Of a DNA stretch of 64,000 bases, positions 9,058 through 54,639 are shown one piece after another. The stretch's first letter is position 1, and each line of letters begins with the position of its first letter. Where the stretch lies: contig CAZIOI010000001.1 in assembly GCA_964540855.1 (NCBI GenBank), positions 7,081 to 71,080 of the forward strand, written 5' to 3'. This DNA is from an uncultured Candidatus Saccharibacteria bacterium. GTDB lineage: Bacteria > Patescibacteriota > UBA1384 > DTJR01. A model generated the notes under the pieces. The model saw only the letters and a program-made list of their open reading frames with translations, did no database searches and had not been told where the DNA came from. The translations under genes were made by a program, and so were the position numbers.

Positions 9058-11472
9058 TTAGCTACCGGCAGCCATAGCCTGTGGCGGTCCTTGCGGTTCA
9101 ACCGGCGGCTCCGACTGCTGATCTGCCGGTTGAACCGGCGCAGCTATTCCTGAAGGTTCGGCTGGGTTGTTATTCGGTTTAGGATCGTTTGTGAGTTTGG
9201 CTTGCCCGGTCGCAGCAAATCTAAATTGTCCCGCTTGGTCTAAATCCACCAGAATATTCTGACCACTCTTAACCTCACCCTTGATCAAAGCACTGGAAAG
9301 CGGATTTTCAATCATTTTTTGGATCATGCGTCTCAACGGTCTGGCACCAAAGACGGGGTCAAAGCCAATTTGCGCCATCTTTGTCTTGGCTGGCGCCGAT
9401 AACTCAAGCGTAATTTTTTGTTCCGCCAAAAGCTTTGAGACCTCCGAGATCATAACCGAAACGATAGCCTCCATATCTTGCGGCATTAAACCTCTAAATA
9501 TGATAATGTCATCGAACCTGTTGACAAATTCAGGCCTAAAGAATCTCAGTAGTTCTTCCATCATCTGCTTTTGCAGGTTCGGATCCGAGACATTTGAACC
9601 CTTAATCAGTTGAGTTCCAACGTTTGAGGTGCAAATAATAATTGTGTTCTTGAAGTCAACGGTTCGGCCCTTGCTATCGGTGAGACGTCCCTCGTCTAAT
9701 ATCTGCAAGAATATATTAAAGACGTCTTGGTTCGCCTTTTCGATCTCATCAAATAGCACGACAGAATATGGATTTTTGCGTACAGCCTCCGTCAGCTGCC
9801 CACCTTCTTCGTAACCCACATACCCGGGAGGCGCGCCAATCATTCTGGCAGTCGCATTTTTTTCCATATATTCACTCATGTCGATCCTGATCATCTTGTC
9901 TTCAACACCAAACATCACCTCGGCTAGGGTTTTCGCCAACTGCGTTTTACCGACACCGGTTGGTCCGAGGAAAATAAACGAGCCCACCGGACGTTTGGGA
10001 TTTTTGAGTCCGGCGCGGTTTCTTCTGATTGCCTCGGAAACAGCCTTCACTGCGGGTTCTTGGTCAATCAACCTTTTATGGATTAAACCTTCCAGGTCGA
10101 GTAAAACTTTTGATTCATCTTGGGTAAGCTTAGTAATTGGAATACCGGAAAGAGCGGAAACAATATCTTTAACTATATCCTCACCGACTTCTTTTGGTTG
10201 AATGTTATTTAAAACAACTTTGGCGCAAGCCTCATCGATGACATCAATTGCCTTGTCAGGCAAACTTCTATCGGCAATATATCTTTGAGAAAGCTTAACG
10301 GCAGCTTCAAGCGCCACGGGTTGCACCTTGACTGAATGGTGCTTTTCATACTTTGGCACAATTCCAACCAACATCTTTACAGCCTGCTCAGCCGTTGGTT
10401 CTTCTACATTGACCTTTTGAAACCTGCGTTCAAAAGCAGCATCCTTTTCTATATACTGGCGAAATTCTTTTATTGTAGTCGCGCCAATACATTGCAGCTC
10501 ACCGCGGGCCAAGGCCGGTTTTAAAATGTTCGCTGCATCCATCGAGCCGTCGCCTCCGGCGCCAATAATGGTATGCAATTCATCAATAAATAGAATCACG
10601 CCTCCGGTGGCAAGTTTTATCTCTTTAATTAAATGCTCCAGACGTTCTTCGAATTCGCCTCTATGCTTAGCACCGGCAATCATTAAGCTCAGATCCAAAA
10701 CCAGTATTTTCTTATCTTTGAGCGGATCGGGAATCTGTCCGGAAGCAATTTTTTGCGCTAGGCCTTCTACAATCGCGGTTTTTCCAACGCCGGCGTCACC
10801 AATCAGCGCCGGGTTGTTCTTCGTTCGCCTTGTCAAAATTTCCATAACACGCGCAATCTCTTTGTCGCGCTCGACAACCGGATCCAGCTTGCCATCTCGA
10901 GCTTTTTGGGTCAAATCAATAGTATAAGTCTCTAAAACCGACGATCCGCCATTTGCCAACTCTTTGACTTTTATCTCTTCCTGTACGGCTTTTTCGTTTT
11001 GCGATAATTCAGAGGTTTTCTTTGTATCCAAATCTTTTTGCGCCTTCTGAAGTTTCGCCAAATCTATACCATTTTCCTTGAGAGTCTGTGTGGCAAACCA
11101 ATCATCGTGCTGAAAAAATGACGCAATAACATGATACGCACTAACAAACCCGGTTTTATCGCCCTCTGAAAGCCTTTTCGATTCATCGAAAACTTTTTTG
11201 GTCTTTGATGAAAACTCCGGCTCACCGGTAAACTCGCCTCGTTGAGATTTCGAAAACAATTCGTCCTGAAGCTTCTTTGCGTCAACTCCGGATGTCTCAA
11301 CCAAAGAAAAAACTTCCGGCGACTCAATAAGCGCCATCAACAAATGTTCCGGATCGACATAGGGTGAATTATACTGTCGCGCTTTTTCGGTTGCAGACTT
11401 GACGCACTCCGAAACAGCGGGTGATAGATTAGAAAAAACGTCCTGACTCTGACGACTTGCAAAGATCTGCAT
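9058..11472 (-). CDS. clpC: ATP-dependent Clp protease ATP-binding subunit (ClpC/ClpA-type AAA+ unfoldase) with Pro/Gln-rich C-terminal tail
   Basis: Clp_N-like N-terminus. Two AAA+ modules (GDAGVGKTAIVEGLAQ and GPTGVGKTQLAKTLAE Walker A motifs). A short middle domain, which makes it ClpC-like rather than ClpB. The C-terminal ~70 aa are P/A/Q/E-rich. Confidence 0.85.
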   Translation of the reverse strand: MQIFASRQSQDVFSNLSPAVSECVKSATEKARQYNSPYVDPEHLLMALIESPEVFSLVETSGVDAKKLQDELFSKSQRGEFTGEPEFSSKTKKVFDESKRLSEGDKTGFVSAYHVIASFFQHDDWFATQTLKENGIDLAKLQKAQKDLDTKKTSELSQNEKAVQEEIKVKELANGGSSVLETYTIDLTQKARDGKLDPVVERDKEIARVMEILTRRTKNNPALIGDAGVGKTAIVEGLAQKIASGQIPDPLKDKKILVLDLSLMIAGAKHRGEFEERLEHLIKEIKLATGGVILFIDELHTIIGAGGDGSMDAANILKPALARGELQCIGATTIKEFRQYIEKDAAFERRFQKVNVEEPTAEQAVKMLVGIVPKYEKHHSVKVQPVALEAAVKLSQRYIADRSLPDKAIDVIDEACAKVVLNNIQPKEVGEDIVKDIVSALSGIPITKLTQDESKVLLDLEGLIHKRLIDQEPAVKAVSEAIRRNRAGLKNPKRPVGSFIFLGPTGVGKTQLAKTLAEVMFGVEDKMIRIDMSEYMEKNATARMIGAPPGYVGYEEGGQLTEAVRKNPYSVVLFDEIEKANQDVFNIFLQILDEGRLTDSKGRTVDFKNTIIICTSNVGTQLIKGSNVSDPNLQKQMMEELLRFFRPEFVNRFDDIIIFRGLMPQDMEAIVSVMISEVSKLLAEQKITLELSAPAKTKMAQIGFDPVFGARPLRRMIQKMIENPLSSALIKGEVKSGQNILVDLDQAGQFRFAATGQAKLTNDPKPNNNPAEPSGIAAPVQPADQQSEPPVEPQGPPQAMAAGS

Positions 11473-11759
11473 TGCCCCTCCTTTTTACATTATTATTAAA
11501 CCACTTCTAAGACCAAAAAGCACCATTAATTAACGTATAACGTAAAACTAAAAACGTATAATGACTAAGATACAATCAACAAGTTACAATCACCAAACAG
11601 CCTACAATATTCAATAATACAAACAAGGACTCTTTTCTTTTGTTTATTGAGATTTGTTATTTGTTTGTCCCTTGCTTACTTGTGATTTGTTGGTTGGCAG
11701 TAATTTTTGTTGATGAAATTCTGATATAATTTTGCTAATGGAAATGAATACGGAGGGGC

Positions 11760-14705
11760 GTGAATAAAGCACTGGCGTTTTTATCGTGGGCTGGGCGTGT
11801 TGTCGTTTTGGCGTTTGCGATTATTGCTTTTGTCGGCTCCAGTAAAATCGCTCAGGCGCAAAACATGGGCGCCGGTTCCGCTACAGTTTCCGGCACAACA
11901 ACTACTGTCAATGCCGTAGCATCCGGTACTTGGACTGAAGATATAGAGGTCACTTCTGTCGGTAAGGCAGCCGCACGCGCCAGAGAGTTTCTAAACTGGA
12001 CACTATCCATAAGGGAAGCCGGCTTCTCCAGTGACACCAGTGGCTCTCCTCAAGCGCTCCTCAAATTATGGTCAGCCGTCAGAAATATTGTTGTCTTTCT
12101 ATATATAGGAATAATTATAGTTATCGCGTTTGGACTCATCTTGCATTTAGGCTGGGCAGAAAAATCGAGGCGTACGTTGGTTTCTTTGATAATCGTCTTT
12201 GCTCTCACGTTTTTTAGTTTTTCCGCCGAAGTCCTCACTATCAGGATGACCGATAAGCTGCAAGAATCATTTTTTTCAATTCACAAAAGCGGTCAGAGTG
12301 GTCTGACTGCCGATCAGAAACATTTGCGCGCAGAAGATCTGCTAACCGTCGCCTTCAACTATCAATCGTTCACGGGGTATCGCAAAGCAGGTGTCAAATA
12401 CGACGAGTCGGTAAGCACTCATCTTAGATTGGTACGGGCAACTACATATACCAACTATGCGATCGCTTTTTTGTTGATTTTAAGAATCATTATTTTATGG
12501 GGTCTTGTAATTTTTTCGCCGTTCATCCTGCCGTTTTTCGTTTTTCAGGTCACCAAAAAGGTTGCTATTGTTTGGATTAGGGAATTCTTCCGGTGGCTAT
12601 TTTTAGGACCTTTGTTTGCGCTTTTTTTAACAGCTGTACCGTATATTTGGCAAAAAACATCCGTTAATGTAGCCAATACTTATGTCGGTCAAAATGCCCA
12701 CGAAAGCGGTGTTCCGATCGAAATCAACACGAATGTTTTAAGGGGCAGCGGTGCTGAACAAACCGCCAACAATGTTTATCAATCCGGAACAAATCTTCTA
12801 CTGACACCACCAAAAAATACAAATCTTAGTCTGACCGACCAAGATGTAGTGACTAATGGCAATAATCTGACAGAAACAGACACTTACGCCAGATATATTA
12901 TTGCCCTCATGATGATATGGGGAGCGATTCTGTTGCCATTTTTGTTGCTAAGGATAATTTCCGGCTTTTCGGTTGAGATCGGCAAGAGCGTTTCTAATAT
13001 CTGGAACAAGTCAGCTGCTCAACAATACATAAACTCCGTTCAGACAAAAATCTCTCCGCCGCCCGTGAGACCGTCGCCGCGACCCGGGCCGGGGATATAT
13101 AAGGATTATAGAGAAAAAACAACTACAACAACCGTTCCGGCAATCCTCAAGGATCGTTCGAGACTCATAAAAGATCATACTTCTACGAGCTATATCATGG
13201 GTCTGACGGGGATGAAACAAGCCGCGCCGCAAGCAATGGAATTTTTATCTGCAAACAAAAGAAGCCTTGCTGATCTATCTAAGCTGGAGCAGAGCGATCA
13301 GGAACTTAAAGTGGCAAACGAGCTTTTGGATAAGCTAGCCAAACCGGAAATGGTAAAAGATAAGACCGAAGCAGACAAACTTGCCGGTATAAAGCAGGCA
13401 ATTGCCGATAAAGAGTTGACCGGCGACGAACTAGCAAGGGCTGTTCAGTCGGCATTGGCTAGGGACACAAGCAAAATCTCAAACGAAAATGCGCTTGAAC
13501 AGGCAAAGGAAAATGCTCTGCGAAACGCAGTCGAGCAATTCTACAGTCAAACTCAAGTTCAAAACGGTTTAAGACAAAAATTATCTAGCCAAGCAGATTC
13601 GAATGAGCTGGCTAGAAACGCTTTGTCGGCTCTTGATCAGATTGGTTCGTTGAGATCCGCTCTGTCACAAGACAAACTAAGCGGTGAGCAAAAACGCGAG
13701 ATTGAAAATCAAATCGTTGCTGTCAAACATCCTGAGATGGCGACTGACACCAAAGCCAGATCACAGTTTATAGCTCTCAAAAGCGTTCTTGAGACCGGAG
13801 AAAGACTATCCGATCCCCACGCAATAGCCATCAACAAACAGATTCAGTCCATTGCAAATACCTATTATAGACAGAACCCCGAGGCTCGCGAAAAGGCACA
13901 GCAGGATACAGCGATTAGTTATCTAAACAGCCTCAACGCAATCAGACAAGCTATTGCATCCAAGACCGACAGTGGGGCTCAGGCGGCAGTTCGGGCGATA
14001 GATAAGATTACAGCGAAACTGGGTGATCAAACAGCACTTTTGGGCAATATAAAGACAAACGGATTAAAAATTGTTGCGACAAATGCCCTGAAGACAAAAG
14101 ATCTTGACAAACTGGAGCAGGGGGATAAAGAAGAGTTTACAGCCCTCAAAGGACAAGTCGATCAAGGAATCGCCAGTCAAGACCCAAGATTTACCTCTTA
14201 TCAAAAATCAACCGAAGACGTTATAGAACAATCCAAAGACCTCGATCAGGCCGATGCCGGCAATGTCGAAGACCTTAGAACTTTGATGGGAGCTGATGAA
14301 GATTTCGCTCAAGTCAAAAAGATGTGGGAACAATATTATTCAAGCGCACCCGTACCGATAGACCAAGAAATCAAAACTCGCGCCGACTGGATCGCTAGAG
14401 AGAAATCCCTGATGCAGAAGGCTCTGGATGGCCTTCTGTCCGCCGATGCGACAGAGAGGGAAAATGCCCTTAAAAATATCGGCAAGATACTACCTTTTGT
14501 TCTTATGGGTAAATACAAAAATTCTGAGATAGCAAAGTATCTTTTGGCAAAGTTTGATGCTGCCGATACGGTTTATAAACAAACGACAGAGAAAAAAGAA
14601 GAGACAGAAGAAGATCTTGTACTAGTTAAAAAACAGGCTTTGTCAGATAAAAATGAGAATACCATGACGTTGGATGGACCGGATCAGACCAAGCAGGAAC
14701 TATAG
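11760..14705 (+). CDS. Large polytopic membrane protein (signal peptide + ~5 TM + ~600-aa coiled-coil C-terminal domain); paralog of 47440..50433 and 51790..54639; VirB6/TrbL-like topology
   Basis: GTG start at 11760 preceded by GGAGGGG. The signal peptide ends at AQA. There are several hydrophobic helices. The stretch …FQVTKKVAIVWIREFFRWLFLGPLFALFLTAV… aligns with …ALPQTSKVFSRWARVAVVWLTLPILANFILRVV… in the 997-aa protein and with …LPQTQAFFRKWWSYLLIAIFFAPLANFVFFIL… in the 949-aa protein. The C-terminal region is Q/E/K/A-rich. Confidence 0.6.
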   Translation: MNKALAFLSWAGRVVVLAFAIIAFVGSSKIAQAQNMGAGSATVSGTTTTVNAVASGTWTEDIEVTSVGKAAARAREFLNWTLSIREAGFSSDTSGSPQALLKLWSAVRNIVVFLYIGIIIVIAFGLILHLGWAEKSRRTLVSLIIVFALTFFSFSAEVLTIRMTDKLQESFFSIHKSGQSGLTADQKHLRAEDLLTVAFNYQSFTGYRKAGVKYDESVSTHLRLVRATTYTNYAIAFLLILRIIILWGLVIFSPFILPFFVFQVTKKVAIVWIREFFRWLFLGPLFALFLTAVPYIWQKTSVNVANTYVGQNAHESGVPIEINTNVLRGSGAEQTANNVYQSGTNLLLTPPKNTNLSLTDQDVVTNGNNLTETDTYARYIIALMMIWGAILLPFLLLRIISGFSVEIGKSVSNIWNKSAAQQYINSVQTKISPPPVRPSPRPGPGIYKDYREKTTTTTVPAILKDRSRLIKDHTSTSYIMGLTGMKQAAPQAMEFLSANKRSLADLSKLEQSDQELKVANELLDKLAKPEMVKDKTEADKLAGIKQAIADKELTGDELARAVQSALARDTSKISNENALEQAKENALRNAVEQFYSQTQVQNGLRQKLSSQADSNELARNALSALDQIGSLRSALSQDKLSGEQKREIENQIVAVKHPEMATDTKARSQFIALKSVLETGERLSDPHAIAINKQIQSIANTYYRQNPEAREKAQQDTAISYLNSLNAIRQAIASKTDSGAQAAVRAIDKITAKLGDQTALLGNIKTNGLKIVATNALKTKDLDKLEQGDKEEFTALKGQVDQGIASQDPRFTSYQKSTEDVIEQSKDLDQADAGNVEDLRTLMGADEDFAQVKKMWEQYYSSAPVPIDQEIKTRADWIAREKSLMQKALDGLLSADATERENALKNIGKILPFVLMGKYKNSEIAKYLLAKFDAADTVYKQTTEKKEETEEDLVLVKKQALSDKNENTMTLDGPDQTKQEL

Positions 14706-30511: not shown

Positions 30512-31678
30512 TTATTTATACAGAATTTCCCTGTAAACTTCAAGGGTCTTTTTTGCCGTTTGCTCCCACGTAAACCTTTTTGCGTTCTTCAAACCGTTAT
30601 CGGAAATTTTTTTACTCACATTCGCATCCGACAAGATAAGGGCTAACTTCTCACTCATGTCATGTGAATCTTCGGGATTAAAATAAACCGCACCATCGGC
30701 ATATATCTCCGGCATGCACGTTCGGTCACTTGAAGCGACCGGCGTGCCGCAAGCCTGTGCTTCCAGCCCGGGAAGCCCAAAACCCTCCGAAAGCGACGGA
30801 AAGCAAAAAACACCGGCTCCGGAATAAATTGCCGGTAAATCGTCATCGGAAACAAAGTCTGTAAACCTGACGCTTTTGGTCAGGTTTCTCTCTTTTATTA
30901 GATCGGGAAGCTGGGGATACTTGGGATCTTCGCGACCAACAAAAACCAGCTTGAGATCGGAAAATATTTTTTGTTTTTTTAAGATTTCAAAAGCTTCAAC
31001 CAACCTGGGCAAATTTTTATGCGATCGCCACTGACCAACAGACAAAATATAAGGTGAACTTATCTTATATTTTCTAAGTGCCGCTTCGATAGTGGCTTTT
31101 TGCGAACGGCTAAACCTCTCGTCGATTGCATTGTAAGTTGTAACTACCTTATCGGGGCGCAAATGAAATTCGTCTATGATTTCTTCTTTGACATAATCCG
31201 AGACTGTAAAAACCTTTTGCGATGAAACGGCGGCATGGTTAATAACATGCTTATAAATCTGTCTTTTAATAATCGATCTCCTTTCAGCGTATTGACCCAG
31301 AGTCAGATCGTGGATTGTTACCACAAATTTGCCACCATAAAACACAGGATGATTAAAATGAGGAAAGTGAACAAGATCCGGCGCGGCCTCTTTTATTTGT
31401 TTTAAAAGAACTGTTTGTTCTTTGAGACTATAATGCGAAGCGGTTGTCCTAACAATTTCCACTCCCCCCGGACGCTTCTCGATAGCAGAGAGAAAGTCTT
31501 CATCTAGCGGAGCGCCGTCAACGACTAGCAAGGCCAAGTCAAGTTCTTTATCTAGTTGGCATATCGATTTAAAAAGCTCGCACGAGTAACGACCAATCCC
31601 CGCATGTGACAGCGACAAGAAGCGACCATAAAACAAAACTTTTTTTCGTTTCAAACTATCTCCTTCGCAATTAATCAA
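30512..31678 (-). CDS. Glycosyltransferase family 4 (GT-B, group 1)
   Basis: C-terminal EGFGLPGLEAQACGTPV motif (E-x7-E region of GT4). Confidence 0.85.
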   Translation of the reverse strand: MINCEGDSLKRKKVLFYGRFLSLSHAGIGRYSCELFKSICQLDKELDLALLVVDGAPLDEDFLSAIEKRPGGVEIVRTTASHYSLKEQTVLLKQIKEAAPDLVHFPHFNHPVFYGGKFVVTIHDLTLGQYAERRSIIKRQIYKHVINHAAVSSQKVFTVSDYVKEEIIDEFHLRPDKVVTTYNAIDERFSRSQKATIEAALRKYKISSPYILSVGQWRSHKNLPRLVEAFEILKKQKIFSDLKLVFVGREDPKYPQLPDLIKERNLTKSVRFTDFVSDDDLPAIYSGAGVFCFPSLSEGFGLPGLEAQACGTPVASSDRTCMPEIYADGAVYFNPEDSHDMSEKLALILSDANVSKKISDNGLKNAKRFTWEQTAKKTLEVYREILYK

Positions 31679-46879: not shown

Positions 46880-47461
46880 CTGTCGCTTTCTAACAGAGGA
46901 AAAATTATCCTTCTATTTTCCGCAGTTATAGTTGTCGGGATTATTGTTTTTGCCTATTTTTACCTTAATCGCGAGGGCTCAAATACTACGACAAACGGGA
47001 CATCTCCCGCAGCCGAAGAGAGTAAAATCGTACTTCAGAGGATTTACGAAAGTCCCCAAGCTTTAAGTTCCGAGACAATCACTCCAAGTAGCGGCGCAAC
47101 CCAGATAGCACCAACCACCAGCCCGACAACAACAGCAGCCAAGCCGACTGCGACCCCGGGGATTTTTGATTATACTGCGAGAGATACCGCCACAGCCGAT
47201 AAAGACACTGTCAAACTGGTTGATGAAATTAAAAAAGAAATCGGCGATAAAGACGTCTGCCAATTGGCAAATATTTCCAATAGCTGGTCAAACCCTGTAG
47301 AGAAAACTGTATGCGGGACAATGAAGTTTGCGGCTGAAAAAGTTTTGGTTCCGATGCTAGAATTTTCCTGTTTCATGTATGCAGGAGCGATGAATCTAAA
47401 TTATGACGCAGATATAACGGCAAATTTTAAGGACAATCAATGCAATTTACAAGACAGATAG
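46880..47461 (+). CDS. Small signal-anchored secreted protein with Thr/Pro-rich linker and 4-Cys C-terminal domain; no in-frame ATG start
   Basis: Open frame from 46868 to 47461. AAAGGAGGGG at 46869-46878 lies just upstream. The only nearby in-frame starts are non-canonical (CTG 46880, ATT 46904). It encodes …IILLFSAVIVVGIIVFAYFYL (anchor), a T/P/A-rich linker and …DVCQLANISNSW…CGTMKF…FSCFMY…NQCNLQDR. The stop overlaps the start of the next gene. Confidence 0.45.
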   Translation: MSLSNRGKIILLFSAVIVVGIIVFAYFYLNREGSNTTTNGTSPAAEESKIVLQRIYESPQALSSETITPSSGATQIAPTTSPTTTAAKPTATPGIFDYTARDTATADKDTVKLVDEIKKEIGDKDVCQLANISNSWSNPVEKTVCGTMKFAAEKVLVPMLEFSCFMYAGAMNLNYDADITANFKDNQCNLQDR

Positions 47462-50433
47462 TCAAAGCATTTATTACTGTAATTATAGTTATAATTGTGG
47501 CATTGGCCGCGCCGAACTTTTTTGGCAAAGACGACAAAATAAATGAGAGTGTATTCCACAAAGAAGATATGCATCTTTCAATTGCATACAGCAGAGCATC
47601 TGCGTACCAATATGGCGACACAACAAATGTAACAAAAGTGTTGGCAAAGCAGTCCGGTAAAAATGGGGAATGGGTCTTTACGATATACAAAATAGCTCTA
47701 TCGTTTGTAAATATTATTGTGGTTTGTTTTTTAATATTTGTCGCTCTTGCCAATATCCTACAGTATGACATTAAAAATTATGCGATAAAGGCTGTCTTGC
47801 CAAAGCTCGTAGGATCAGTCATAGCAGCCAATTTGTCAATGACTATTTTTGTCTTTGCGTCAAAGATCATCGACTCTATGATGGGAATATCAATTTTTAA
47901 ACCGCTCGGGTGGGATTGGTTTTCTTTTATTATTGGGGGGCACGGTTGGCAAATTGGCACAGCCGGAACAATAGGGGTACTCATTGGTCTTTTAGCAAAA
48001 ATTTTTTTGGGTGTCTTCGGGTGGGTTAGCGTGGTCATAGTAGTTATAGGCTTGCTAGCGGCGCTTCTTCTGGCACTATTTGTGTCATTGATCCTTGCGT
48101 TCAGACCGTACGTCGTTCTACTGTGCGTCGCAGTTGCCCCAATCGCGATTGTTTGCTACGCGCTCCCGCAAACCTCAAAAGTATTCAGTAGATGGGCCAG
48201 GGTCGCTGTTGTATGGCTTACCCTGCCAATCCTGGCTAATTTCATCCTACGAGTCGTCATGTTAATCCCCTCTGGAACAAAAATGACTTTGACTTTGGGG
48301 GAATTTGGTCCTGTCAGCGGTATCGTAGGCTTTTTAGTTCCGACAATAGTTAGAGGCGCAGCTCTCCTATTTGTCGCCAGGCTCCCATTTAAGCTTGGGG
48401 ATGATGTGAGCGGATTAATTTCCACATATGGTCGCAAACTCGGGCGTGGCGCCATGGTCGCCAGCGGCCAACTCGCTTATTGGTCTGATCGAAAACAAAA
48501 ACAGAAAGAAGTCGAGGCCGATAATAGAAGCAGGGGGAACACACGCAAAGCATATGAAAGCGGAAGTATTGGTGAAATAGCAAATTTTTATATGGAAAGA
48601 GAAAAGGAAAAAAGAGCAGAAGCATTGAAAAAGCAGGCTGATGGTAAAACTCTAACCAGAGATGAATATGCATATACCATGCTAACTGATCCGGATATCC
48701 GAGCAAGCGCAGAACAAAAAGCGCGAAGCGGTTTGGCAGCTCAAGTCCAATATACGAATCCTAGCGATTACAATGACGCGCTAGTAGAAATGCAAAGCGA
48801 GCAAACCGCACTTCAAAACAAGATTGCAACAAACAAAGCGTTGAATGAAAGAGAGAAAATATTGAGAAAACAAGGCTTCCACACTTTGTCATTAGGCGAC
48901 CTTGAGAAGAAGGCAAAGGAAGAAGTCGCACAACGAAACCGAGAAACAATTTCCGATGAAATTAGCAGAAGAGATGTGGCTGCACAAAAGGAAACCGGAA
49001 CACACAGGGCTTTGGAATATGTCAAAAAAAGCAATTTGTATGGTGTTATGAGCACAATCAAAGAAAACCTTGACTATGACGAAGCAGAGCGCGGTAAAAC
49101 ATTTGCAAAATATTCGTGGTTTGCTGAACAAACCAGAGGTCGATATGCACAAGGAAAATATATGTCGGCTGTTGTCAAGGAAGATCTCGCTGATCTTGGA
49201 ACATCGGAAGAAATGGCGGAATATTTGAAGCCGGCTTTCCAGGCTTTCTACGAGAATGTAGCCAGCGCGATGGGGCAGACAACCGTCACTGATGCTGTAA
49301 AGCTGGAAGCTAACGCTATGTTAAGAAGATACAGGACCCAAGTTAAGGGGCTTAAAGATTATATGCAACACCCATATTTTGATAATATAAAACCCAATAC
49401 AGCGGCAAACATTGTTCAGGGCGATTATGCCCTCAATCAACAATTGGCCAGAGAAGCGCGCGGACGTAACCGACCCGGTCAAGATAGAATTATCGAGGAA
49501 CGCAAACGTGAAATATTTGGCTCCGGCTCGCCAACTACACCGGAGCAAAAACGTATCACCGCGCTGGAACAGCAAAACCAGAGGAGAAGCTTGCTGTTAT
49601 TACAACAGATAGCGAGGCAAACTACCGGTGTCACGCAGAAACAAGCATTTGCCAGGGCAATTGAGTTAGCAGACGAGATGGGCCATGGTCTGGGCGTCGA
49701 TAGTATTGAAGATCTGCCTAGAAGTCACTCCGAATTAAAGGATGTTTCTCACGAGAATATCTATATGACAAAAGTTGCCCTCGCCGCAAGATCAGAAGAA
49801 GGAAGGCGCGTTGCTGCACTTACAGAGAGAATCAGCGGCCAGGAAGATGTCGATGCAATCATGCAATCGCATTATGTTCTGGGTCAAGCCGCAACTAATC
49901 CAAGCAGCGTTTCGCCGGAACTAATCTCTAGAGCAAAAACTGTTATTGGTCAAAAAATGAACATTAACCCCTCTTTGGTTGATGTGGCCAACAGCAATAC
50001 ACTTCTAAAAGCAGCCGAAGCCGCGACCGTTTCTGACCTAGCGGGTCAAAGAACAAAGATTACTGACCCAATAGAGGTTCAATACAGGATTGGCACGCAG
50101 GTCATGAGAGATCGTGCCGTCACCGATACAGAGGCTATTTTACAAGACATCAGGACACAAATCGCAAGTGGCATACAGTCAACGGACATTGATCTTGGAT
50201 CTATTGACACACAGGTTCGCGCCCTCACAGATCCTCACTTGCAACTAGAATTCGGATCGGCATGGACCGGTCAAACAGTAGCTCTAAAAGAACAGGTTAT
50301 TGCCGAGACCTCCAAGCAGTTGCAACAAGCTGTAGCATCCGCTGACTCTGCCCTAGTCGCAGAAGCTGAGTCGCAAGTTCCGATAATGATCTCAGAAACA
50401 TTTAAAAAAATAGCTTCCCAACCAAGGAGTTAG
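47440..50433 (+). CDS. Giant polytopic membrane protein (997 aa): signal peptide, ~6 TM, ~620-aa charged coiled-coil C-terminal domain; VirB6/TrbL-like topology; paralog of 51790..54639 and 11760..14705
   Basis: The signal peptide MQFTRQIVKAFITVIIVIIVALAAPNFFG is followed by several hydrophobic helices. The motif …NYAIKAVLPKLVGSVIAAN… is shared with the 949-aa paralog (…NTYAIKKALPSIIIAIIGG…). The C-terminal half is E/K/Q/R/A-rich. Confidence 0.6.
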   Translation: MQFTRQIVKAFITVIIVIIVALAAPNFFGKDDKINESVFHKEDMHLSIAYSRASAYQYGDTTNVTKVLAKQSGKNGEWVFTIYKIALSFVNIIVVCFLIFVALANILQYDIKNYAIKAVLPKLVGSVIAANLSMTIFVFASKIIDSMMGISIFKPLGWDWFSFIIGGHGWQIGTAGTIGVLIGLLAKIFLGVFGWVSVVIVVIGLLAALLLALFVSLILAFRPYVVLLCVAVAPIAIVCYALPQTSKVFSRWARVAVVWLTLPILANFILRVVMLIPSGTKMTLTLGEFGPVSGIVGFLVPTIVRGAALLFVARLPFKLGDDVSGLISTYGRKLGRGAMVASGQLAYWSDRKQKQKEVEADNRSRGNTRKAYESGSIGEIANFYMEREKEKRAEALKKQADGKTLTRDEYAYTMLTDPDIRASAEQKARSGLAAQVQYTNPSDYNDALVEMQSEQTALQNKIATNKALNEREKILRKQGFHTLSLGDLEKKAKEEVAQRNRETISDEISRRDVAAQKETGTHRALEYVKKSNLYGVMSTIKENLDYDEAERGKTFAKYSWFAEQTRGRYAQGKYMSAVVKEDLADLGTSEEMAEYLKPAFQAFYENVASAMGQTTVTDAVKLEANAMLRRYRTQVKGLKDYMQHPYFDNIKPNTAANIVQGDYALNQQLAREARGRNRPGQDRIIEERKREIFGSGSPTTPEQKRITALEQQNQRRSLLLLQQIARQTTGVTQKQAFARAIELADEMGHGLGVDSIEDLPRSHSELKDVSHENIYMTKVALAARSEEGRRVAALTERISGQEDVDAIMQSHYVLGQAATNPSSVSPELISRAKTVIGQKMNINPSLVDVANSNTLLKAAEAATVSDLAGQRTKITDPIEVQYRIGTQVMRDRAVTDTEAILQDIRTQIASGIQSTDIDLGSIDTQVRALTDPHLQLEFGSAWTGQTVALKEQVIAETSKQLQQAVASADSALVAEAESQVPIMISETFKKIASQPRS

Positions 50434-50434
50434 T

Positions 50435-51793
50435 TTGGAAACAGAAGAGCAAACAACAGACTCCACAGAACAACAGCCGGAAGCAGATTACGGAGTCGGT
50501 CGAAGTGTCGCCGACAGAGTCAGCGAATCAAATGATACTTTTCGTGCCGCCGACAAATTATCCGGTGGTCGTATTGGCAGCGCTACTAAAAAAGCTGGAG
50601 AGGCTTTTGACAAGACAGGATTGGGACAAGGTATTAACAAAGCCCGTCAAGCCGCCAGCAGTGCCAAGAGTGCCGCAACCAAGCAAGTTACCGAGGCAGG
50701 CAAAAAAGTCGCCGGCAAAGCAGTACAAAAAGGCGCCGAGCTTGCTGCCAAAGCAGGAATTTCTGCTGCTACCGGCGCCGCAACAGCTGGCGTCTCCACT
50801 GCTGTTCAGGCAGGATTGGAAGGCATTCAGAAAGCCGCTCAAATAAGCGACAAAATTAGAAAAGCTGTTAAAAGCGCTACCGGCGGACTCATCGATCCGG
50901 ACATTTTTGGTGATCTAAAAGACAAATTAAAGGAGTATTGGAAACAAAATAAATGGAGAATTATCGGCGGCTCGTGTCTTGTTTTCGCTCTTTTGGCGAT
51001 CGCTCCATTTATTATCATGATCGTGATGATTTCAAAATTCTTGTTTTCCGACAATACGGAGCCGACTAATAAGGCGATAATAAACAGCATCAGCTCCCTC
51101 TCATCATCACAAAGGCTATTTTTCACAGGTTCCGGTGATCTGGACGCTATAAAAAACGGCGAGATATCCCAAAACTCGCTCAAGATGATCAATTATTTAG
51201 CCAAAAAACATCAGAGGATAGAGATCAATTACTCGCCCAAGACCGACGAGACATCGACCGGCGCCAACGAACCTTATGAGTTTGATATTGTTTCGGTCGA
51301 TGAGATTCGCTGCAGCGTAAACGGACAAAAAGTCGGATCCGTGCCGATTTATCTTAACTCCAATTACGATTTCGTCTCAGCCGCCAAAAACATCCCCTCA
51401 AACGCCATCTGCGCCAGCGGCTATTACCCGAACATCGAAGCGCAAATAAAATCGGCTTATTTCGACCAGTTTTCGCCGGGCGAATTTCTCGCCGGCGAGA
51501 TCGCAACTCGCGGCAAAATGGTCGCGCAAGAAAAGCTGGCGGAGATCACAGAGGATATATTTAAAGCAAATTCAAACCTTAAAATCAATAGCAGTTCTGA
51601 TGATAGCGTTTTGCCGGCAGCTATCACCATAGACGATAAATACGCTACAATAAATCAGAAGGACAATTCGGCCGGCGTTTTGGTGGTGATGAAAGATAAA
51701 ATTGCGCACTACTATCCAACCGCCGATTCATCAAGCACGGGTGTTCTTAAGTCGACCGGACAAAAATATGGAATACATATAAGTTTCTTATGA
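50435..51793 (+). CDS. Bitopic membrane protein (452 aa): acidic N-terminus, Ala/Lys-rich repeats, single TM, ~240-aa extracytoplasmic domain
   Basis: The N-terminal ~185 aa are low-complexity (KAGEAF…KQVTEAGKKVAGKAVQKGAELAAKAG…). One TM segment (WRIIGGSCLVFALLAIAPFIIMIVMISKFLF). The C-terminal domain has 3 Cys. The start is adjacent to the previous stop, and the stop overlaps the next start (ATGA). Confidence 0.55.
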   Translation: METEEQTTDSTEQQPEADYGVGRSVADRVSESNDTFRAADKLSGGRIGSATKKAGEAFDKTGLGQGINKARQAASSAKSAATKQVTEAGKKVAGKAVQKGAELAAKAGISAATGAATAGVSTAVQAGLEGIQKAAQISDKIRKAVKSATGGLIDPDIFGDLKDKLKEYWKQNKWRIIGGSCLVFALLAIAPFIIMIVMISKFLFSDNTEPTNKAIINSISSLSSSQRLFFTGSGDLDAIKNGEISQNSLKMINYLAKKHQRIEINYSPKTDETSTGANEPYEFDIVSVDEIRCSVNGQKVGSVPIYLNSNYDFVSAAKNIPSNAICASGYYPNIEAQIKSAYFDQFSPGEFLAGEIATRGKMVAQEKLAEITEDIFKANSNLKINSSSDDSVLPAAITIDDKYATINQKDNSAGVLVVMKDKIAHYYPTADSSSTGVLKSTGQKYGIHISFL

Positions 51794-54639
51794 TCAGATT
51801 GATCAAATTTACAGTTATAGTTACGGCAGCTATCGGACTGCTTGTTTTGCCTGCGACAGCCAAGGCAATTCCTTCCGATATAAATTACAAATGGGATAGC
51901 AATGAGTCTCCATTGACCGATGGAGTGAGTGGCACGACCACCAGTGAACAGATATGCCAAGATTTGTTCGCCGCGGATAGCACAAATATTTTTAAAGAAG
52001 TGGTTTGCTCTTTTACTCGACTTGCCGCTTTGTCAATTGCCGACCTCGCCACAGACATTACCTGCTCAATCCAGCAGGTAGGTAACGGCACAAATTATAA
52101 AAGCACTACTTTCTCAAGTAGCTCGGGCAAATGTGAGGAGTCGCCAACAAACCCCTTGGGCGATAAATCCCAAAAAACCGGTTTCTACAGCGACGAACTT
52201 GCGAATTCGACAAGCGCCCTGACTGACTCCCTTTCACCGAGTCAGTCAGCTACTCCATCAGCGGCTTACAAAGGCTTCACAATCGCCAGAAATATTATGG
52301 GGCTTATGGCCGTAGTAGCACTATTTGTCTTTGCCTTTGCTAATATTTTGCACATCGAAGTTAATACATATGCGATCAAAAAGGCTCTCCCATCAATCAT
52401 TATCGCCATTATCGGCGGTGCGCTTTCGATTTATATTGTGTTTTTGCTGTCCAGATTTGTCGATTTCACGTACAGGCTCAATATCTTTTCGCCTTATCAG
52501 GCCTACCATCCAATGCAAAATATCTTCGGCGGATATTTTAATCTCGGGTCGGTTGACCAACTCAAAGATGATAGTGTCAAACTGGTATTCGATGTGGGAT
52601 CAAGCCTGATCGGCGCAAGCGGCGTCAGTTTTTTTGCCGGCGTCTTGGGTTCAATTATGCTGGTTATCCCCGCTCTAGCGACATTTGCCTTCGAATACGT
52701 TCTTTCGCTCAGAGCCTTCGCCGTTCAGATTTTGACAATAATAGCTCCGATCGCCTTCGCTTGCTTGATTTTGCCTCAAACACAAGCGTTTTTCAGAAAA
52801 TGGTGGTCATATTTGTTGATTGCAATCTTTTTTGCACCACTGGCGAACTTTGTATTTTTTATTTTAAACCTTTTTGGATCTTCTTCGAGCGATGTAACAT
52901 CTCTGATGGCACTCTGGTTTTTAAAAACCGTTGCTATTATCTTTTTGATCCGCTTCCCCTTCACGGTCGAAGCAGACACGAAAAAAATTCTTGCAGCCGT
53001 TTCGAAAACAAGCTTTGGCGCGGCGCTTGGACTTAACAGGATTGGCGGCACCGATGTGAAACCACAGAACAAAGAGCAACAGGTTAAATTTGCCAGTATC
53101 GACAAGATAAAAGATATTTCAAAAAATAATCCAAGGGTACTCGCCCCCGCCATAAGGACAAATCAAGCCGGTCAGCTAAGATCGGCCGCGATCGGCAAGC
53201 AAGGCAGACAAGCGATCGCGCCCGCCGGACTGAATAGCTCCATCGAAAAGGCCGTCTCGCAAGCTGCTCAAGACAATGCAAGCCGTTCCGATAATCTGCT
53301 GGTCAAATCTTCGGCAAGTATTGCCAACAGAGCATTCAGAGCCGTTGTGGATCAATCCGATCTTAAACTATGGCGAGATACGAGGCTCATAGAACAGCTC
53401 AAAAATCATAACGGGCAAGTCTTGGACGAACAGGGTGCTGCTATGCGCGCCGATTCGGCGCGCAAGTTGATGAGATTATCGCAGGTCGTGGAAAACGACA
53501 AAATCGCTAACCCCGAGGCGCTAAAAGTGTTGGCGACAAAGGGTGTTCTCGATAATATCCCTATGTCGATAATAAAAAAAGCGATCGATGACGGAATTCT
53601 GCAAAAAAGCGATCTTGCGACAACCTTTGGAGACAACACTAGCAAGGTTATAGAATATATCGATAGCAGCAAACAAACCAGGCAGGGCTTTCTAACCGAT
53701 ACCCAAGCAAAAACATTGATGACTCGAGACCAGAGTGATTACGCAACCGGCTTCAGGGATTTAACTAAGCTTTTCACTGACACGATCAAAGACCCTTCAA
53801 TCTTTCCTCCCCCACCTCCGCCAGTTATAAAAAACATCATTTCACAGATGAGATCGACCGACTCTGATATTTTTGAAAAAAACGGGATGTATTACCTCAA
53901 CCGTCTTGCCCAAATTCAAAAAGCTTCGACAAAAGATATTAGCTCCACCCTTACAAAAACCGGCGTCCAGAATCAGACCGCTTTGGCAATCGCCAAGAAC
54001 CCACGAATCGACTTTTCTGATGCCAAAAAATACACCGACAAGGGTAAGCTAGACTCAAACAGCCTTTCGTTACTCAGAGAAGGATTTTTAAATAGAGACT
54101 TATCCGATAATCTCATCGGCAGTATATCCGCCCTGATGAAAGAGCAAAAAACACTGATTGGCAAAGGGATAACTCAAAAAATTTCCGAGAGCATAAGCAA
54201 AAATCCCGATGGACTTAAACTGTCGGATATCGGCGAAAATATGCGAAAAGTCATTCAGGGGCTACAAAAACCGGCAACGCCGCAGGATATTCAGAAGCTT
54301 GCGGGAGAAGTCGATAAATTTTATCCCGGTGCCGCCCTTAAATCCAGTCTGACCTTAAGCCATGATGACATCCAAGACACATCCAAAAAAGCCGCTGGCA
54401 TATTGGAAACTGTCGAAACTCTAATCCGCTCGGGTATGGATGAAAAATCAATCAACAAAAATCCACAGAAAGCTGTAAATGAAATAGAAAAATCCGTGGC
54501 ACAGGAGATCGAACAAGCGGCTTCCGGCCAAATCGCCAAAGACAGTGAATTTGATACAAAATTATCTAACATATCCAAAAACACGCCGTCTAATACCGGC
54601 TCAAGCATTGCAGACGCTATAACCGCCGGAGCCAAATAA
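51790..54639 (+). CDS. Giant polytopic membrane protein (949 aa): signal peptide, ~140-aa Cys-containing ectodomain, ~6 TM, ~580-aa hydrophilic C-terminal domain; paralog of 47440..50433
   Basis: Signal peptide MIRLIKFTVIVTAAIGLLVLPATAKA. Ectodomain with 5 Cys. The TM block is homologous to the 997-aa protein (…CLILPQTQAFFRKWWSYLL…). The long C-terminus is K/D/S/Q-rich and includes a PPPPPV tract. Confidence 0.6.
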   Translation: MIRLIKFTVIVTAAIGLLVLPATAKAIPSDINYKWDSNESPLTDGVSGTTTSEQICQDLFAADSTNIFKEVVCSFTRLAALSIADLATDITCSIQQVGNGTNYKSTTFSSSSGKCEESPTNPLGDKSQKTGFYSDELANSTSALTDSLSPSQSATPSAAYKGFTIARNIMGLMAVVALFVFAFANILHIEVNTYAIKKALPSIIIAIIGGALSIYIVFLLSRFVDFTYRLNIFSPYQAYHPMQNIFGGYFNLGSVDQLKDDSVKLVFDVGSSLIGASGVSFFAGVLGSIMLVIPALATFAFEYVLSLRAFAVQILTIIAPIAFACLILPQTQAFFRKWWSYLLIAIFFAPLANFVFFILNLFGSSSSDVTSLMALWFLKTVAIIFLIRFPFTVEADTKKILAAVSKTSFGAALGLNRIGGTDVKPQNKEQQVKFASIDKIKDISKNNPRVLAPAIRTNQAGQLRSAAIGKQGRQAIAPAGLNSSIEKAVSQAAQDNASRSDNLLVKSSASIANRAFRAVVDQSDLKLWRDTRLIEQLKNHNGQVLDEQGAAMRADSARKLMRLSQVVENDKIANPEALKVLATKGVLDNIPMSIIKKAIDDGILQKSDLATTFGDNTSKVIEYIDSSKQTRQGFLTDTQAKTLMTRDQSDYATGFRDLTKLFTDTIKDPSIFPPPPPPVIKNIISQMRSTDSDIFEKNGMYYLNRLAQIQKASTKDISSTLTKTGVQNQTALAIAKNPRIDFSDAKKYTDKGKLDSNSLSLLREGFLNRDLSDNLIGSISALMKEQKTLIGKGITQKISESISKNPDGLKLSDIGENMRKVIQGLQKPATPQDIQKLAGEVDKFYPGAALKSSLTLSHDDIQDTSKKAAGILETVETLIRSGMDEKSINKNPQKAVNEIEKSVAQEIEQAASGQIAKDSEFDTKLSNISKNTPSNTGSSIADAITAGAK

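What the first reader, a model, noticed from the sequence alone, without database searches (positions are those of the whole stretch)
11760..14705. Third paralog of the giant membrane-protein family, 33 kb away from the operon
This 981-aa protein has the same build: signal peptide, ~5 TM helices, and a long Q/E/K-rich coiled-coil C-terminus. It shares the motif …F..W…L.PL.A.F.L…. with the 997- and 949-aa proteins. It starts with GTG. It sits divergently next to clpC and is followed by a DUF2207 membrane protein. Multiple dispersed paralogs with divergent C-terminal domains suggest diversifying surface or host-interaction functions, as with VirB6 expansions in Rickettsiales or variable surface proteins.
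Basis: seen in the sequence. Interest (0 to 1): 0.55.

Follow-up and report, generated by a model that had tools for sequence, protein, structure and literature searches.

The report
Divergent extended VirB6-like membrane protein
This 981-residue gene of an ultrasmall (Candidate Phyla Radiation) bacterium encodes a highly diverged relative of VirB6, the inner-membrane platform of type IV secretion systems, and its wider family is almost always encoded next to a pilin gene and a Clp-type unfolding ATPase inside the heat-shock gene cluster, a link that has apparently not been described.

Summary
The ORF at 11760-14705 is real (GTG start, GGAGG ribosome-binding site, conserved TGnTATAAT promoter). 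It encodes a signal peptide, five TM helices and a roughly 500-aa helical C-terminal domain.

It is a genuine but distant paralog of the 997- and 949-aa proteins, through the TM core only (hhalign E = 2.4e-10, 96.8%; reversed controls 15-20%). All three belong to the TrbL/VirB6 superfamily.

The C-terminus is not a coiled coil: it is three tandem helical repeats of about 130 aa plus a conserved cap module, probably cytoplasmic. It is also under strong purifying selection (dN/dS about 0.05, like neighbouring housekeeping genes).

The 981-aa protein is the Berkelbacteria-type ortholog of a family found in 249 species-level genomes. Across 80 loci the usual order is hrcA-grpE-dnaK-dnaJ-[VirB2-like pilin]-[this protein]-[Clp ATPase]. 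A pilin gene is adjacent in 61 of 74 loci and a Clp gene in 49 of 64; no VirB4 lies within 10 kb.

In nine species the neighbouring Clp ATPase carries the same repeat module as this protein's cytoplasmic domain.

Best reading: an "extended VirB6" membrane platform, probably coupled to the adjacent non-canonical Clp ATPase. This is a new variant of a known kind.

The parts
11722..11730 (+). Extended -10 promoter element TGATATAAT of the 981-aa gene
   Evidence: Conserved as TGnTATAAT at the same distance from the start codon in all orthologous loci: L006, L089, L001 and L086-L088.
11752..11756 (+). Shine-Dalgarno GGAGG, 3 nt upstream of the GTG start
   Evidence: Sequence; conserved in orthologs.
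11760..14705 (+). Gene for the 981-aa extended VirB6/TrbL-like membrane protein (stop codon included)
   Evidence: ORF. 56 homologs. 249 species genomes encode a relative. dN/dS 0.04-0.065.
11760..11858 (+). Probable Sec signal peptide (aa 1-33, AQA|Q), or an N-terminal anchor
   Evidence: Hydropathy and sequence. No dedicated signal-peptide predictor was available.
11931..12005 (+). Highly conserved extracytoplasmic N-terminal helix (aa 58-82; family consensus VTxVGKxAARAREFLNW)
   Evidence: Conservation 0.75 in block 61-80, with invariant V64 and R73. Helix H62-82 in the model.
12054..13004 (+). VirB6/TrbL-like five-TM core (aa 99-415), including a 73-aa outside loop (aa 300-372)
   Evidence: hhalign against the 949 family covers aa 97-298. 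Pfam TrbL maps to the equivalent region of family members, three of them above the gathering score. Foldseek matches TrwI/VirB6 chains 7o3v and 8rt9 with probability 0.84-0.87. Topology.
13005..13175 (+). Proline- and K/R-rich disordered cytoplasmic linker (aa 416-472)
   Evidence: pLDDT below 50 over aa 417-472; 11 K/R residues.
13176..14279 (+). Three tandem helical repeats of about 130 aa (aa 473-840). The first holds the conserved 'modN' unit (aa 479-565) with the motif L..K(I/L)..PE....D......F..(I/L)K.......GD
   Evidence: Internal hhalign: 571-700 against 701-840, 98.7%, E = 2e-16; 473-570 against 571-700, 94.8%. The motif is visible three times in the sequence. No PDB relative by sequence or fold.
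14280..14603 (+). Conserved C-terminal cap module 'modC' (aa 841-948; invariant W856, P912, Y927, A930)
   Evidence: It is the part of the C-terminal domain that carries the matches to 287 cluster representatives in the exhaustive search. It accompanies the TM core in every full-length member and occurs 3-5 times in giant members. Conservation.
14604..14702 (+). Variable, disordered acidic tail (aa 949-981)
   Evidence: pLDDT about 30. The fastest-evolving part of the protein.
9058..11472 (-). Divergently transcribed non-canonical Clp/Hsp100 ATPase (804 aa): Clp_N plus two AAA+ modules, no ClpB M-domain, no ClpP-docking loop. It is the ortholog of the Clp gene adjacent to this family in other CPR lineages
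   Evidence: Pfam. NCBIfam aligns it colinearly with ClpA and in two pieces with ClpB. Ortholog assignment: 48% identity and 713 bits to the adjacent Clp type, against 37% and 360 bits to the distal type. Loop check.
47440..50433 (+). 997-aa distant paralog (VirB6-like TM core, unrelated C-terminal domain)
   Evidence: BLASTP against the 949-aa protein E = 2e-22. hhalign of the 949-family profile against it E = 1e-24; of the 981-family profile E = 1.1e-4, colinear.
51790..54639 (+). 949-aa distant paralog (VirB6-like TM core, unrelated C-terminal domain)
   Evidence: Pfam TrbL E = 2.6e-4. Comparisons. One homolog is named 'type IV secretion system protein' by NCBI.

Best explanation
The gene encodes an 'extended VirB6': a TrbL/VirB6-superfamily inner-membrane protein with a cleaved signal peptide, an outside N-terminus and five TM helices.

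Fused to this core is a cytoplasmic domain of about 500 aa, made of three helical repeats of about 130 aa plus a conserved cap module.

By analogy with VirB6 in solved type IV secretion systems, the TM core most likely oligomerises into the membrane platform on which VirB2-type pilin is assembled and/or through which substrate passes. This step is inferred.

The cytoplasmic repeat domain is most likely a docking scaffold. Its best candidate partner is the neighbouring non-canonical Clp/Hsp100 ATPase, which has no M-domain and no ClpP loop. This is inferred from conserved gene pairing and from domain sharing.

The window's copy is the Berkelbacteria-type ortholog. It keeps the Clp neighbour (inverted) and has its own conserved promoter, but it has lost the adjacent pilin gene and the dnaK-operon context seen in most other lineages.

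It is an ancient paralog of the 997/949 pair, not a recent or diversifying copy.
For: VirB6 superfamily:
- 21 of 57 family members hit Pfam TrbL. Three exceed Pfam's gathering score of 25.9 bits (31.6, 27.0 and 26.0) over TM1-TM4.
- The only high-probability PDB fold hits are TrwI/VirB6 of R388 (probability 0.84-0.87, target TM-score 0.41-0.43).
- The predicted topology is N-out, five TM helices, C-in.

Paralogy.

T4SS link: a PF18895 VirB2-like pilin gene lies immediately upstream on the same strand in 61 of 74 loci.

Clp link:
- A Clp ATPase lies immediately downstream in 49 of 64 loci, and within 1.6 kb in 54 of 64.
- The window's ClpC is the ortholog of that adjacent Clp.
- In Berkelbacteria the pair persists in both divergent (window, L006, L089, L001) and co-directional (L009) arrangements.
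- Nine adjacent Clp ATPases carry C-terminal extensions built from the same modN repeat (E from 1.7e-6 to 2e-25). Nothing else among 3661 ORFs matches, and the reversed database gives no hits.

Constraint:
- dN/dS is 0.013-0.043 in the TM core and 0.045-0.061 in the C-terminal domain.
- Housekeeping synteny is retained at about 40% protein identity.

Domain anatomy.
Against: - The query protein itself has no Pfam or NCBIfam hit, even at E <= 1.
- Foldseek E-values to VirB6 are weak (0.6-0.7), and the PDB sequence-profile search finds nothing.
- No VirB4, VirD4 or pilin gene exists in the 64-kb window. No VirB4 lies within 10 kb in any of 80 related loci. Participation in a T4SS machine is therefore inferred, not shown.
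- The Clp link could partly reflect inherited gene order within an old heat-shock cluster.
- The window's own ClpC has no modN repeat.
- The topology rests on the positive-inside rule only.
Confidence: 0.6

Rival explanations
1. A proteostasis factor rather than a secretion component. The protein would be a membrane anchor or adaptor that recruits the Clp ATPase (and possibly DnaK) to the membrane for quality control or extraction of membrane proteins. Its VirB6-like fold would be an evolutionary relic.
For: - The family sits inside the hrcA-grpE-dnaK-dnaJ ... clp cluster, behind a CIRCE operator in 30 loci.
- It shares a repeat module with the Clp ATPase.
- No VirB4 lies nearby.
- The window's copy keeps Clp but not the pilin.
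Against: - A VirB2-like pilin gene is the tightest neighbour (82% of loci, overlapping or less than 30 bp away). That is hard to explain by proteostasis alone.
- The conserved extracytoplasmic helix and the 73-aa outside loop suggest a function that extends beyond the cytoplasmic face.
Confidence: 0.2
2. One reading: one of several dispersed paralogs whose divergent C-terminal domains are surface-exposed and evolve under diversifying selection for host interaction or antigenic variation.
For: - Three paralogs with unrelated C-terminal domains exist in one genome.
- The middle of the C-terminal domain (aa 561-840) varies in length and sequence across the family.
- Family members range from 700 to 3266 aa through module duplication.
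Against: - dN/dS of the C-terminal domain is 0.045-0.061, equal to that of DUF2207 and holA.
- The C-terminal domain is predicted to be cytoplasmic.
- The modN and modC modules are conserved across phylum-level distances.
- The gene sits in conserved housekeeping synteny rather than a variable region.
- Caveat: gene-average dN/dS cannot exclude a few positively selected sites.
Confidence: 0.05
3. No real homology: the resemblance to the 997- and 949-aa proteins comes only from the shared composition of polytopic membrane proteins.
For: - Pairwise BLAST against the 997-aa protein is marginal (E = 0.007 over 59 aa).
- The motif as written does not match literally.
- The whole-length HMM gives no useful score against the paralogs.
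Against: - Composition-adjusted BLASTP against the 949-aa protein gives E = 6e-5 over 234 aa.
- hhalign scores 99.5 against 41-43 for the reversed profiles.
- Invariant columns of one family align with invariant columns of the other.
- Both families independently hit the same Pfam family over the same region.
Confidence: 0.03

Closest known systems
VirB6 / TrbL (Pfam PF04610), for example TrwI of plasmid R388 (PDB 7o3v, 8rt9) and A. tumefaciens VirB6
   Same: - A polytopic inner-membrane core of about five helices with a large outside loop.
- Family members reach Pfam's threshold.
- It is the best-probability fold match.
- It is paired with a VirB2-type pilin gene in most lineages.
- From my own knowledge: VirB6 topology (periplasmic N-terminus, five TM helices, cytoplasmic C-terminus) and its proposed role as the pilin assembly platform in R388.
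   Different: - About three times larger.
- The query itself is undetectable with Pfam or NCBIfam.
- It has a signal peptide and a cytoplasmic repeat domain of about 500 aa with no known relative.
- It is not encoded with VirB4, VirB3, VirB8 or VirD4.
- It is chromosomal, vertically inherited, and lies in a housekeeping or heat-shock context.
'Extended VirB6' proteins (as defined in the review PMC12857230), such as the multiple RvhB6 paralogs of Rickettsiales and the TraG N-terminal domain of F-like plasmids (examples from my own knowledge)
   Same: - Five or more hydrophobic helices plus a large hydrophilic C-proximal domain whose function is unknown.
- Several paralogs per genome, each with a different extension.
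   Different: - The extension here is a defined repeat array (modN-type repeats plus a modC cap) that is shared with a Clp ATPase.
- There is no evidence of surface exposure or diversifying selection.
- The paralogs are not all arranged in tandem.
The Patescibacteria T4SS (Quinonero-Coronel et al. 2025, PMC12102498; Wang et al. 2023, PMC10633639)
   Same: - The same superphylum.
- A monoderm T4SS that unusually has VirB2-like pilins (PF18895).
- VirB6 homologs are known there, and some lie far from virB4 (480 were detected, 304 of them near virB4).
   Different: - That work centres on virB4 neighbourhoods near dnaA. It reports VirB6 as 'scarce or absent' in Microgenomatia and attributes this to extreme divergence.
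- The family described here is abundant in Microgenomatia-type genomes (Levy-, Roizman-, Davies- and Gottesmanbacteria) and sits in the dnaK-clp cluster.
- The papers I read do not mention that context.
ClpV (TssH) of type VI secretion systems. This is a functional analogy only
   Same: A Clp/Hsp100-family ATPase without ClpP coupling that is dedicated to a secretion or filament machine rather than to general proteolysis. The window's ClpC scores 726 bits against the ClpV model but stays below its cut-off.
   Different: There are no T6SS genes here. The Clp ATPase lacks an M-domain. The coupling is inferred from gene adjacency and a shared repeat, not demonstrated.

Membership tests
TrbL/VirB6 superfamily (PF04610) | Significant match to the family profile | tested here: inconclusive
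   The query itself has no hit at E <= 1. However, 21 of its 57 family members hit at E < 0.01, and three exceed the gathering score (31.6, 27.0 and 26.0 bits against a cut-off of 25.9), covering profile positions 7-182 of 215. Membership therefore holds at family level by transitivity.
TrbL/VirB6 superfamily (PF04610) | Polytopic inner-membrane protein with about five TM helices, N-terminus outside and C-terminus inside, and a large extracytoplasmic loop | tested here: met
   Hydropathy, AF2 helices and the positive-inside rule. This is a prediction only.
TrbL/VirB6 superfamily (PF04610) | Fold similarity to a solved VirB6 | tested here: inconclusive
TrbL/VirB6 superfamily (PF04610) | Encoded together with other T4SS genes (VirB4 signature ATPase, VirB2, VirB3, VirB8) | tested here: not met
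   The 64-kb window has no VirB4, VirD4 or pilin gene, and no VirB4 lies within 10 kb in 80 related loci. Partial exception: a VirB2-like pilin is adjacent in 61 of 74 loci of other lineages. Whether VirB4 occurs elsewhere in these genomes could not be tested.
Extended VirB6 (definition quoted in PMC12857230) | Five or more hydrophobic helices plus a large central or C-proximal hydrophilic domain | tested here: met
   Five TM helices plus a hydrophilic domain of about 510 aa (aa 473-981).
The window's 997/949-aa protein family | Positional homology of the TM core | tested here: met
   hhalign E = 2.4e-10, probability 96.8%, against 15-20% for reversed profiles. HMM hit on the 949-aa protein at E = 1.7e-6. 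BLASTP E = 6e-5.
The window's 997/949-aa protein family | Shared C-terminal domain, or membership of the same orthologous group | tested here: not met
   C-terminal profiles are unrelated (E = 0.34). modN and modC are absent from the 997 and 949 proteins. The two families coexist on the same contigs, so they are separate groups.
Coiled-coil proteins | Long uninterrupted helices with heptad packing | tested here: not met
   27 helices, mean 14 aa and longest 28 aa, in a confident compact model (pTM 0.73); tandem repeats of about 130 aa. No dedicated coiled-coil predictor was available.
Variable surface proteins under diversifying selection | Elevated dN/dS in the variable domain, and surface exposure | tested here: not met
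   dN/dS is 0.045-0.061 in the C-terminal domain, against 0.02-0.07 in neighbouring genes. The domain is predicted to be cytoplasmic. Site-level models were not run.

The most novel reading that the evidence does not exclude
The trio of VirB2-like pilin, extended VirB6-like protein and non-canonical Clp/Hsp100 ATPase is a self-contained pilus or secretion module that does not need VirB4. It would be expressed from the HrcA/CIRCE-controlled chaperone operon. In it, the AAA+ unfoldase docks onto the cytoplasmic repeat domain of the membrane platform through the shared modN repeats, and either powers pilin extraction and polymerisation or threads unfolded substrates into the channel. That would be a new way of energising a T4SS-derived machine. 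The window's Berkelbacteria version would be a reduced form that keeps only the platform and the ATPase.
Probability: 0.2. Interest if true: 0.85.

Novelty: new variant of a known kind. Interest (0 to 1): 0.6.

Why it matters
Candidate Phyla Radiation bacteria depend on other cells, and in the one genetically tractable species their T4SS and its pilins are essential. Even so, VirB6 has been reported as nearly missing from whole classes such as Microgenomatia.

This family is a strong candidate for that 'missing' VirB6, and it shows up in an unexpected place: between dnaJ and a Clp ATPase in the heat-shock cluster, always beside a pilin gene.

The repeat module shared between the membrane protein and the Clp ATPase gives a concrete, testable hypothesis about what the cytoplasmic extension does. 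The field says the role of extensions in 'extended VirB6' proteins is unknown. It also raises the possibility that an Hsp100-type unfoldase serves a T4SS-derived apparatus.

For the window itself, the result turns three anonymous giant ORFs into identifiable T4SS-related genes and removes a mistaken coiled-coil and variable-surface-protein reading.

Tried and rejected
- **Whole-length HMM.** The 981-family HMM run against the paralogs was uninformative because glocal scores were swamped. I replaced it with hhalign and a TM-core HMM.
- **Sequence searches with no significant result.**
  - PDB sequence-profile searches with the full family (A1) and with the C-terminal domain (A3) gave only chance GPCR, spike and designed-protein hits.
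  - NCBIfam gave nothing for any of the five operon or paralog proteins.
  - tblastn of the TM core against 72,556 plasmids gave no match.
- **Pilin in the window.** A 6-sequence and then a 95-sequence HMM found none in the window or in Berkelbacteria/WS2-type loci.
- **Regulatory and RNA elements in the window.** No CIRCE operator, no Rfam hit and no tRNA. The generic promoter/terminator scan was no better than shuffled sequence.
- **Length correlation.** VirB6-like protein length against adjacent Clp length is not significant (Spearman 0.135, p = 0.37). The real signal was the shared repeat in the subset with long Clp genes.
- **Last homolog search.** Searching with the Clp extension returned a single hit because of the word index, so the wider distribution of Clp-repeat fusions stays unknown.
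- **Clp fusions among representatives.** None of the 141 listed C-domain representatives contains a Clp domain.
- **Literature.** I found no description of the dnaK/pilin/VirB6/Clp linkage. The library searched is incomplete.
Full report
**1. The observation**

Three things support the start codon:
- a GGAGG ribosome-binding site three bases upstream;
- agreement of the N-terminus MNKAL with the family consensus MxKxL;
- a TGnTATAAT extended -10 element (window 11722-11730), conserved at the same distance in every orthologous locus.

Upstream and divergent lies an 804-aa Clp/Hsp100 ATPase (9058-11472). Downstream and convergent lies a DUF2207_C membrane protein (Pfam E = 1.5e-32). The '997- and 949-aa proteins' are at 47440-50433 and 51790-54639.

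Hydropathy and an AlphaFold2 model (mean pLDDT 74.8) give:
- a hydrophobic N-terminus ending in AQA|Q;
- five TM segments at about 110-128, 143-161, 234-252, 276-297 and 379-397;
- a Pro- and K/R-rich disordered linker (aa 416-472);
- an all-helical C-terminal domain.

**2. Is it a paralog of the 997/949 pair?**

Yes, but a distant one, and only in the TM core.
- The 997 and 949 proteins are clearly related to each other (BLASTP E = 2e-22 over about 290 aa).
- The 981-aa protein matches the 949-aa protein at E = 6e-5 (24% identity over 234 aa) and the 997-aa protein at E = 0.007.
- I built family alignments: A1 (981 plus 56 homologs) and A2 (949 plus 37 homologs). hhalign of A1 against A2 gives probability 96.8%, E = 2.4e-10, score 99.5, colinear over aa 97-298 of the 981 protein and aa 156-360 of the 949 protein.
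- Reversed-profile controls score 41-43 (probability 15-20%) and fall outside the TM core.
- Invariant columns align with invariant columns: R242, P254 and W272 with R308, P320 and W337/W338.
- A TM-core HMM of the 981 family hits the 949-aa protein at E = 1.7e-6.
- The C-terminal domains are unrelated (E = 0.34).
- The two families coexist on the same contigs in at least four other genomes (contigs of 148,086, 262,783, 60,987 and 64,892 bp appear in both hit lists). They are therefore old paralogs with separate roles.

**3. What family is it?**

The query has no Pfam or NCBIfam hit. The family-level evidence nevertheless points to TrbL/VirB6:
- 21 of its 57 family members hit Pfam TrbL/VirB6. 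Three pass Pfam's own gathering score (31.6, 27.0 and 26.0 bits against 25.9) over TM1-TM4.
- The 949-aa protein and its family hit the same model. NCBI names one of that family's members 'type IV secretion system protein'.
- Foldseek of the model against the PDB gives high probability (0.69-0.87) only for TrwI/VirB6 chains of the R388 T4SS stalk (target TM-score 0.40-0.43), although E-values are weak at 0.6-1.3.
- The predicted topology (N-out, five TM helices, C-in) follows the positive-inside rule. The two short inside loops and the linker carry 3, 5 and 11 K/R residues, while the 73-aa outside loop carries 2. This is the topology I recall for A. tumefaciens VirB6.
- With its hydrophilic domain of about 500 aa, the protein fits the 'extended VirB6' class. 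A 2025 review says the extra domains of that class have unknown function.

**4. The C-terminal domain is a repeat array, not a coiled coil**

- A domain-only model is confident (pLDDT 82.2, pTM 0.73). It consists of 27 short helices, mean 14 aa and longest 28 aa.
- Profile self-comparison shows tandem repeats: aa 571-700 against 701-840 (98.7%, E = 2e-16, 120 columns), and aa 473-570 against both at 85-95%.
- Each repeat carries a motif visible by eye, for example LAKPEMVKDKTEADKLAGIKQAIADKELTGD and VKHPEMATDTKARSQFIALKSVLETGERLSD.
- A distinct, highly conserved cap module, 'modC' (aa 841-948; invariant W856, P912, Y927, A930), follows.
- An exhaustive search of 1.84 billion representatives with the C-terminal domain found 287 proteins. 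The conserved piece is modC.
- Among the 141 listed representatives, modC accompanies the VirB6-like TM core in 98. Larger members (1100-3266 aa) have 3-5 copies of modC and up to 18 modN-type units. Those lacking the core are mostly short sequences, probably fragments.
- Neither sequence nor fold searches find any solved relative.

**5. Selection**

I compared the window gene with orthologs at 97%, 93% and 81% identity using Nei-Gojobori estimates. dN/dS values are given only where dS is not saturated.

| Region | dN/dS |
|---|---|
| Whole gene | 0.041-0.065 |
| TM core | 0.013-0.043 |
| C-terminal domain | 0.045-0.061 |
| DUF2207 (neighbour) | 0.02-0.06 |
| holA (neighbour) | 0.04-0.07 |

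In the 93% pair the C-terminal domain accumulates amino-acid changes several times faster than the TM core (dN 0.053 against 0.007), yet it is strongly constrained. At 39% protein identity the gene still sits in the same housekeeping neighbourhood: UDG, PNPase, S15, DHH, S20, LepB, CAP, Clp, this gene, DUF2207, holA, exonuclease, PheT. This, together with the predicted cytoplasmic location, argues against a diversifying surface function.

**6. The wider family and its gene context**

A scan of one genome per species found 249 genomes encoding a relative. They are labelled Berkelbacteria, WS2, Levy-, Roizman-, Davies- and Gottesmanbacteria, Saccharimonadales and other Patescibacteria. Many record titles reading 'uncultured Gammaproteobacteria' are evidently placeholder labels.

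I called ORFs in 80 loci and classified the neighbours:
- A PF18895 VirB2-like pilin gene lies immediately upstream on the same strand in 61 of 74 loci.
- A Clp ATPase lies immediately downstream in 49 of 64 loci, and within 1.6 kb in 54 of 64.
- dnaK lies upstream in 47 of 64 loci.

The typical order is hrcA-grpE-dnaK-dnaJ-pilin-VirB6-like-clp, with gaps of a few to about 100 bp. CIRCE-like operators lie directly upstream of hrcA at 30 sites. No VirB4-like gene recurs within 10 kb.

The 2025 survey of Patescibacteria T4SS reports VirB6 as 'scarce or absent' in Microgenomatia and suspects extreme divergence. It does not mention this context. This family is a plausible candidate for that missing VirB6.

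**7. The link to the Clp ATPase**

- The window's ClpC is the ortholog of the adjacent Clp type (median 48% identity and 713 bits), not of the second, distal Clp found in those clusters (37% identity and 360 bits).
- Within Berkelbacteria-type genomes the pair persists in both divergent (window, L006, L089, L001) and co-directional (L009) arrangements.
- This ATPase is not canonical. It aligns colinearly with ClpA and in two pieces with ClpB. Its Walker A spacing is about 280 aa, so it has no M-domain. None of the 40 parsable adjacent copies has the [ILVM]-G-[FLM] ClpP-docking loop.
- Most tellingly, nine adjacent Clp ATPases (1057-1513 aa) have C-terminal extensions built from several copies of the same modN repeat as the VirB6-like cytoplasmic domain (full-sequence E from 1.7e-6 to 2e-25). 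Among 3661 ORFs, modN hits only the VirB6-like proteins and these Clp proteins, and it hits nothing in a reversed database.
- This domain sharing is the strongest evidence that the two proteins work together. It remains indirect, and the window's own ClpC lacks the repeat.

**8. Mechanism: what is shown and what is inferred**

Shown by computation:
- homology of the TM core to the paralogs and, at family level, to TrbL/VirB6;
- the domain anatomy;
- purifying selection;
- conserved adjacency to pilin and Clp genes;
- the shared repeat.

Inferred:
- The TM core forms the oligomeric membrane platform for pilin assembly and/or substrate passage, as proposed for VirB6 in R388.
- The C-terminal domain is cytoplasmic.
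- The C-terminal domain docks the Clp ATPase.

Unknown:
- whether a VirB4 elsewhere in the genome takes part;
- what, if anything, is secreted;
- why the Berkelbacteria lineage lost the adjacent pilin gene.

The main rival is a membrane-tethered proteostasis role in the chaperone cluster.

**9. Verdict**

The finding is real and is more specific than stated. The protein is a divergent extended VirB6, a distant paralog of the operon pair, and the Berkelbacteria-type member of a large CPR family. That family has a previously unreported linkage, as far as the accessible literature shows, to a pilin gene, the dnaK operon and an unusual Clp ATPase. I rate it a new variant of a known kind, with interest 0.6.

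Noticed in passing
window 46880-47461 (+): An apparent 1-kb 'gap' upstream of the 997-aa gene holds a 193-codon ORF with a probable CTG start preceded by AAGGAGGGG. It encodes a single-pass membrane protein homologous to the first gene of the syntenic operon in L090 (tblastn E = 5e-19). The ORF lister misses it because it accepts only ATG, GTG and TTG starts. It overlaps the start of the 997-aa gene by 22 nt, so the operon has five genes.
   Followed up: partly
window 54641-56098 (+), about aa 215-220: The last operon gene (485 aa, no TM helix) has an HEIGH (HExxH) zinc-metalloprotease-like motif and a weak Peptidase_M78 hit (E = 0.17). It could be a secreted or regulatory protease linked to the VirB6-like pair.
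   Followed up: no
window 9058-11472 (-); adjacent Clp genes in L009-L085: The Clp/Hsp100 ATPase next to the gene has neither a ClpB M-domain (Walker A spacing 278 aa; colinear with ClpA) nor a ClpP-docking loop. The same holds for 40 of 40 parsable orthologs. It scores below the NCBIfam cut-offs for ClpA, ClpB and ClpV.
   Followed up: partly
L016, L020, L023, L035, L037, L039, L042, L045, L071 (the Clp gene immediately downstream of the VirB6-like gene): These Clp ATPases (1057-1513 aa) carry C-terminal extensions made of 4-7 copies of the same helical 'NPE' repeat (modN) as the VirB6-like cytoplasmic domain, followed by a Pro/Ala/Gln-rich tail.
   Followed up: yes
window 11532-11562 (clpC / VirB6-like intergenic region); L087 1-60: Direct repeats AACGTATAA(CGT) occur two or three times near the clpC side of the intergenic region. 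L087 has similar ACGTTATACGT repeats. They may form an operator. They resemble neither CIRCE nor the CtsR box as I recall it.
   Followed up: no
L086, L087, L088 (contig ends): Three independent Logan assemblies of close relatives end 46-141 bp upstream of the gene, inside the clpC / VirB6-like intergenic region. This suggests strain variation or a repeat there that breaks assemblies.
   Followed up: no
window 30512-33123 and 35097-46390 (-): There are two polysaccharide-type clusters (Wzx flippase plus GT4; and GT2, GT4, two Wzy-like genes and a Wzx). The second lies immediately upstream of the VirB6-like operon, and the same arrangement is conserved in L090.
   Followed up: no
L038, L058, L066, L080 and L015, L025: Variant arrangements of the cluster. 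In some loci the Clp gene lies upstream of an array of 3-4 divergent pilin genes that precede the VirB6-like gene, with a SpoIID-domain protein downstream. In others, pilin arrays lie about 5 kb away on the opposite strand and no Clp gene is adjacent.
   Followed up: partly
window 1-64000: No tRNA, tmRNA or Rfam family at gathering threshold anywhere in the 64 kb. Gene content is housekeeping and cell-envelope (PNPase, PheST, MurC-like, FemAB, TsaD, H+-PPase, ProS, EF-P, S6).
   Followed up: yes
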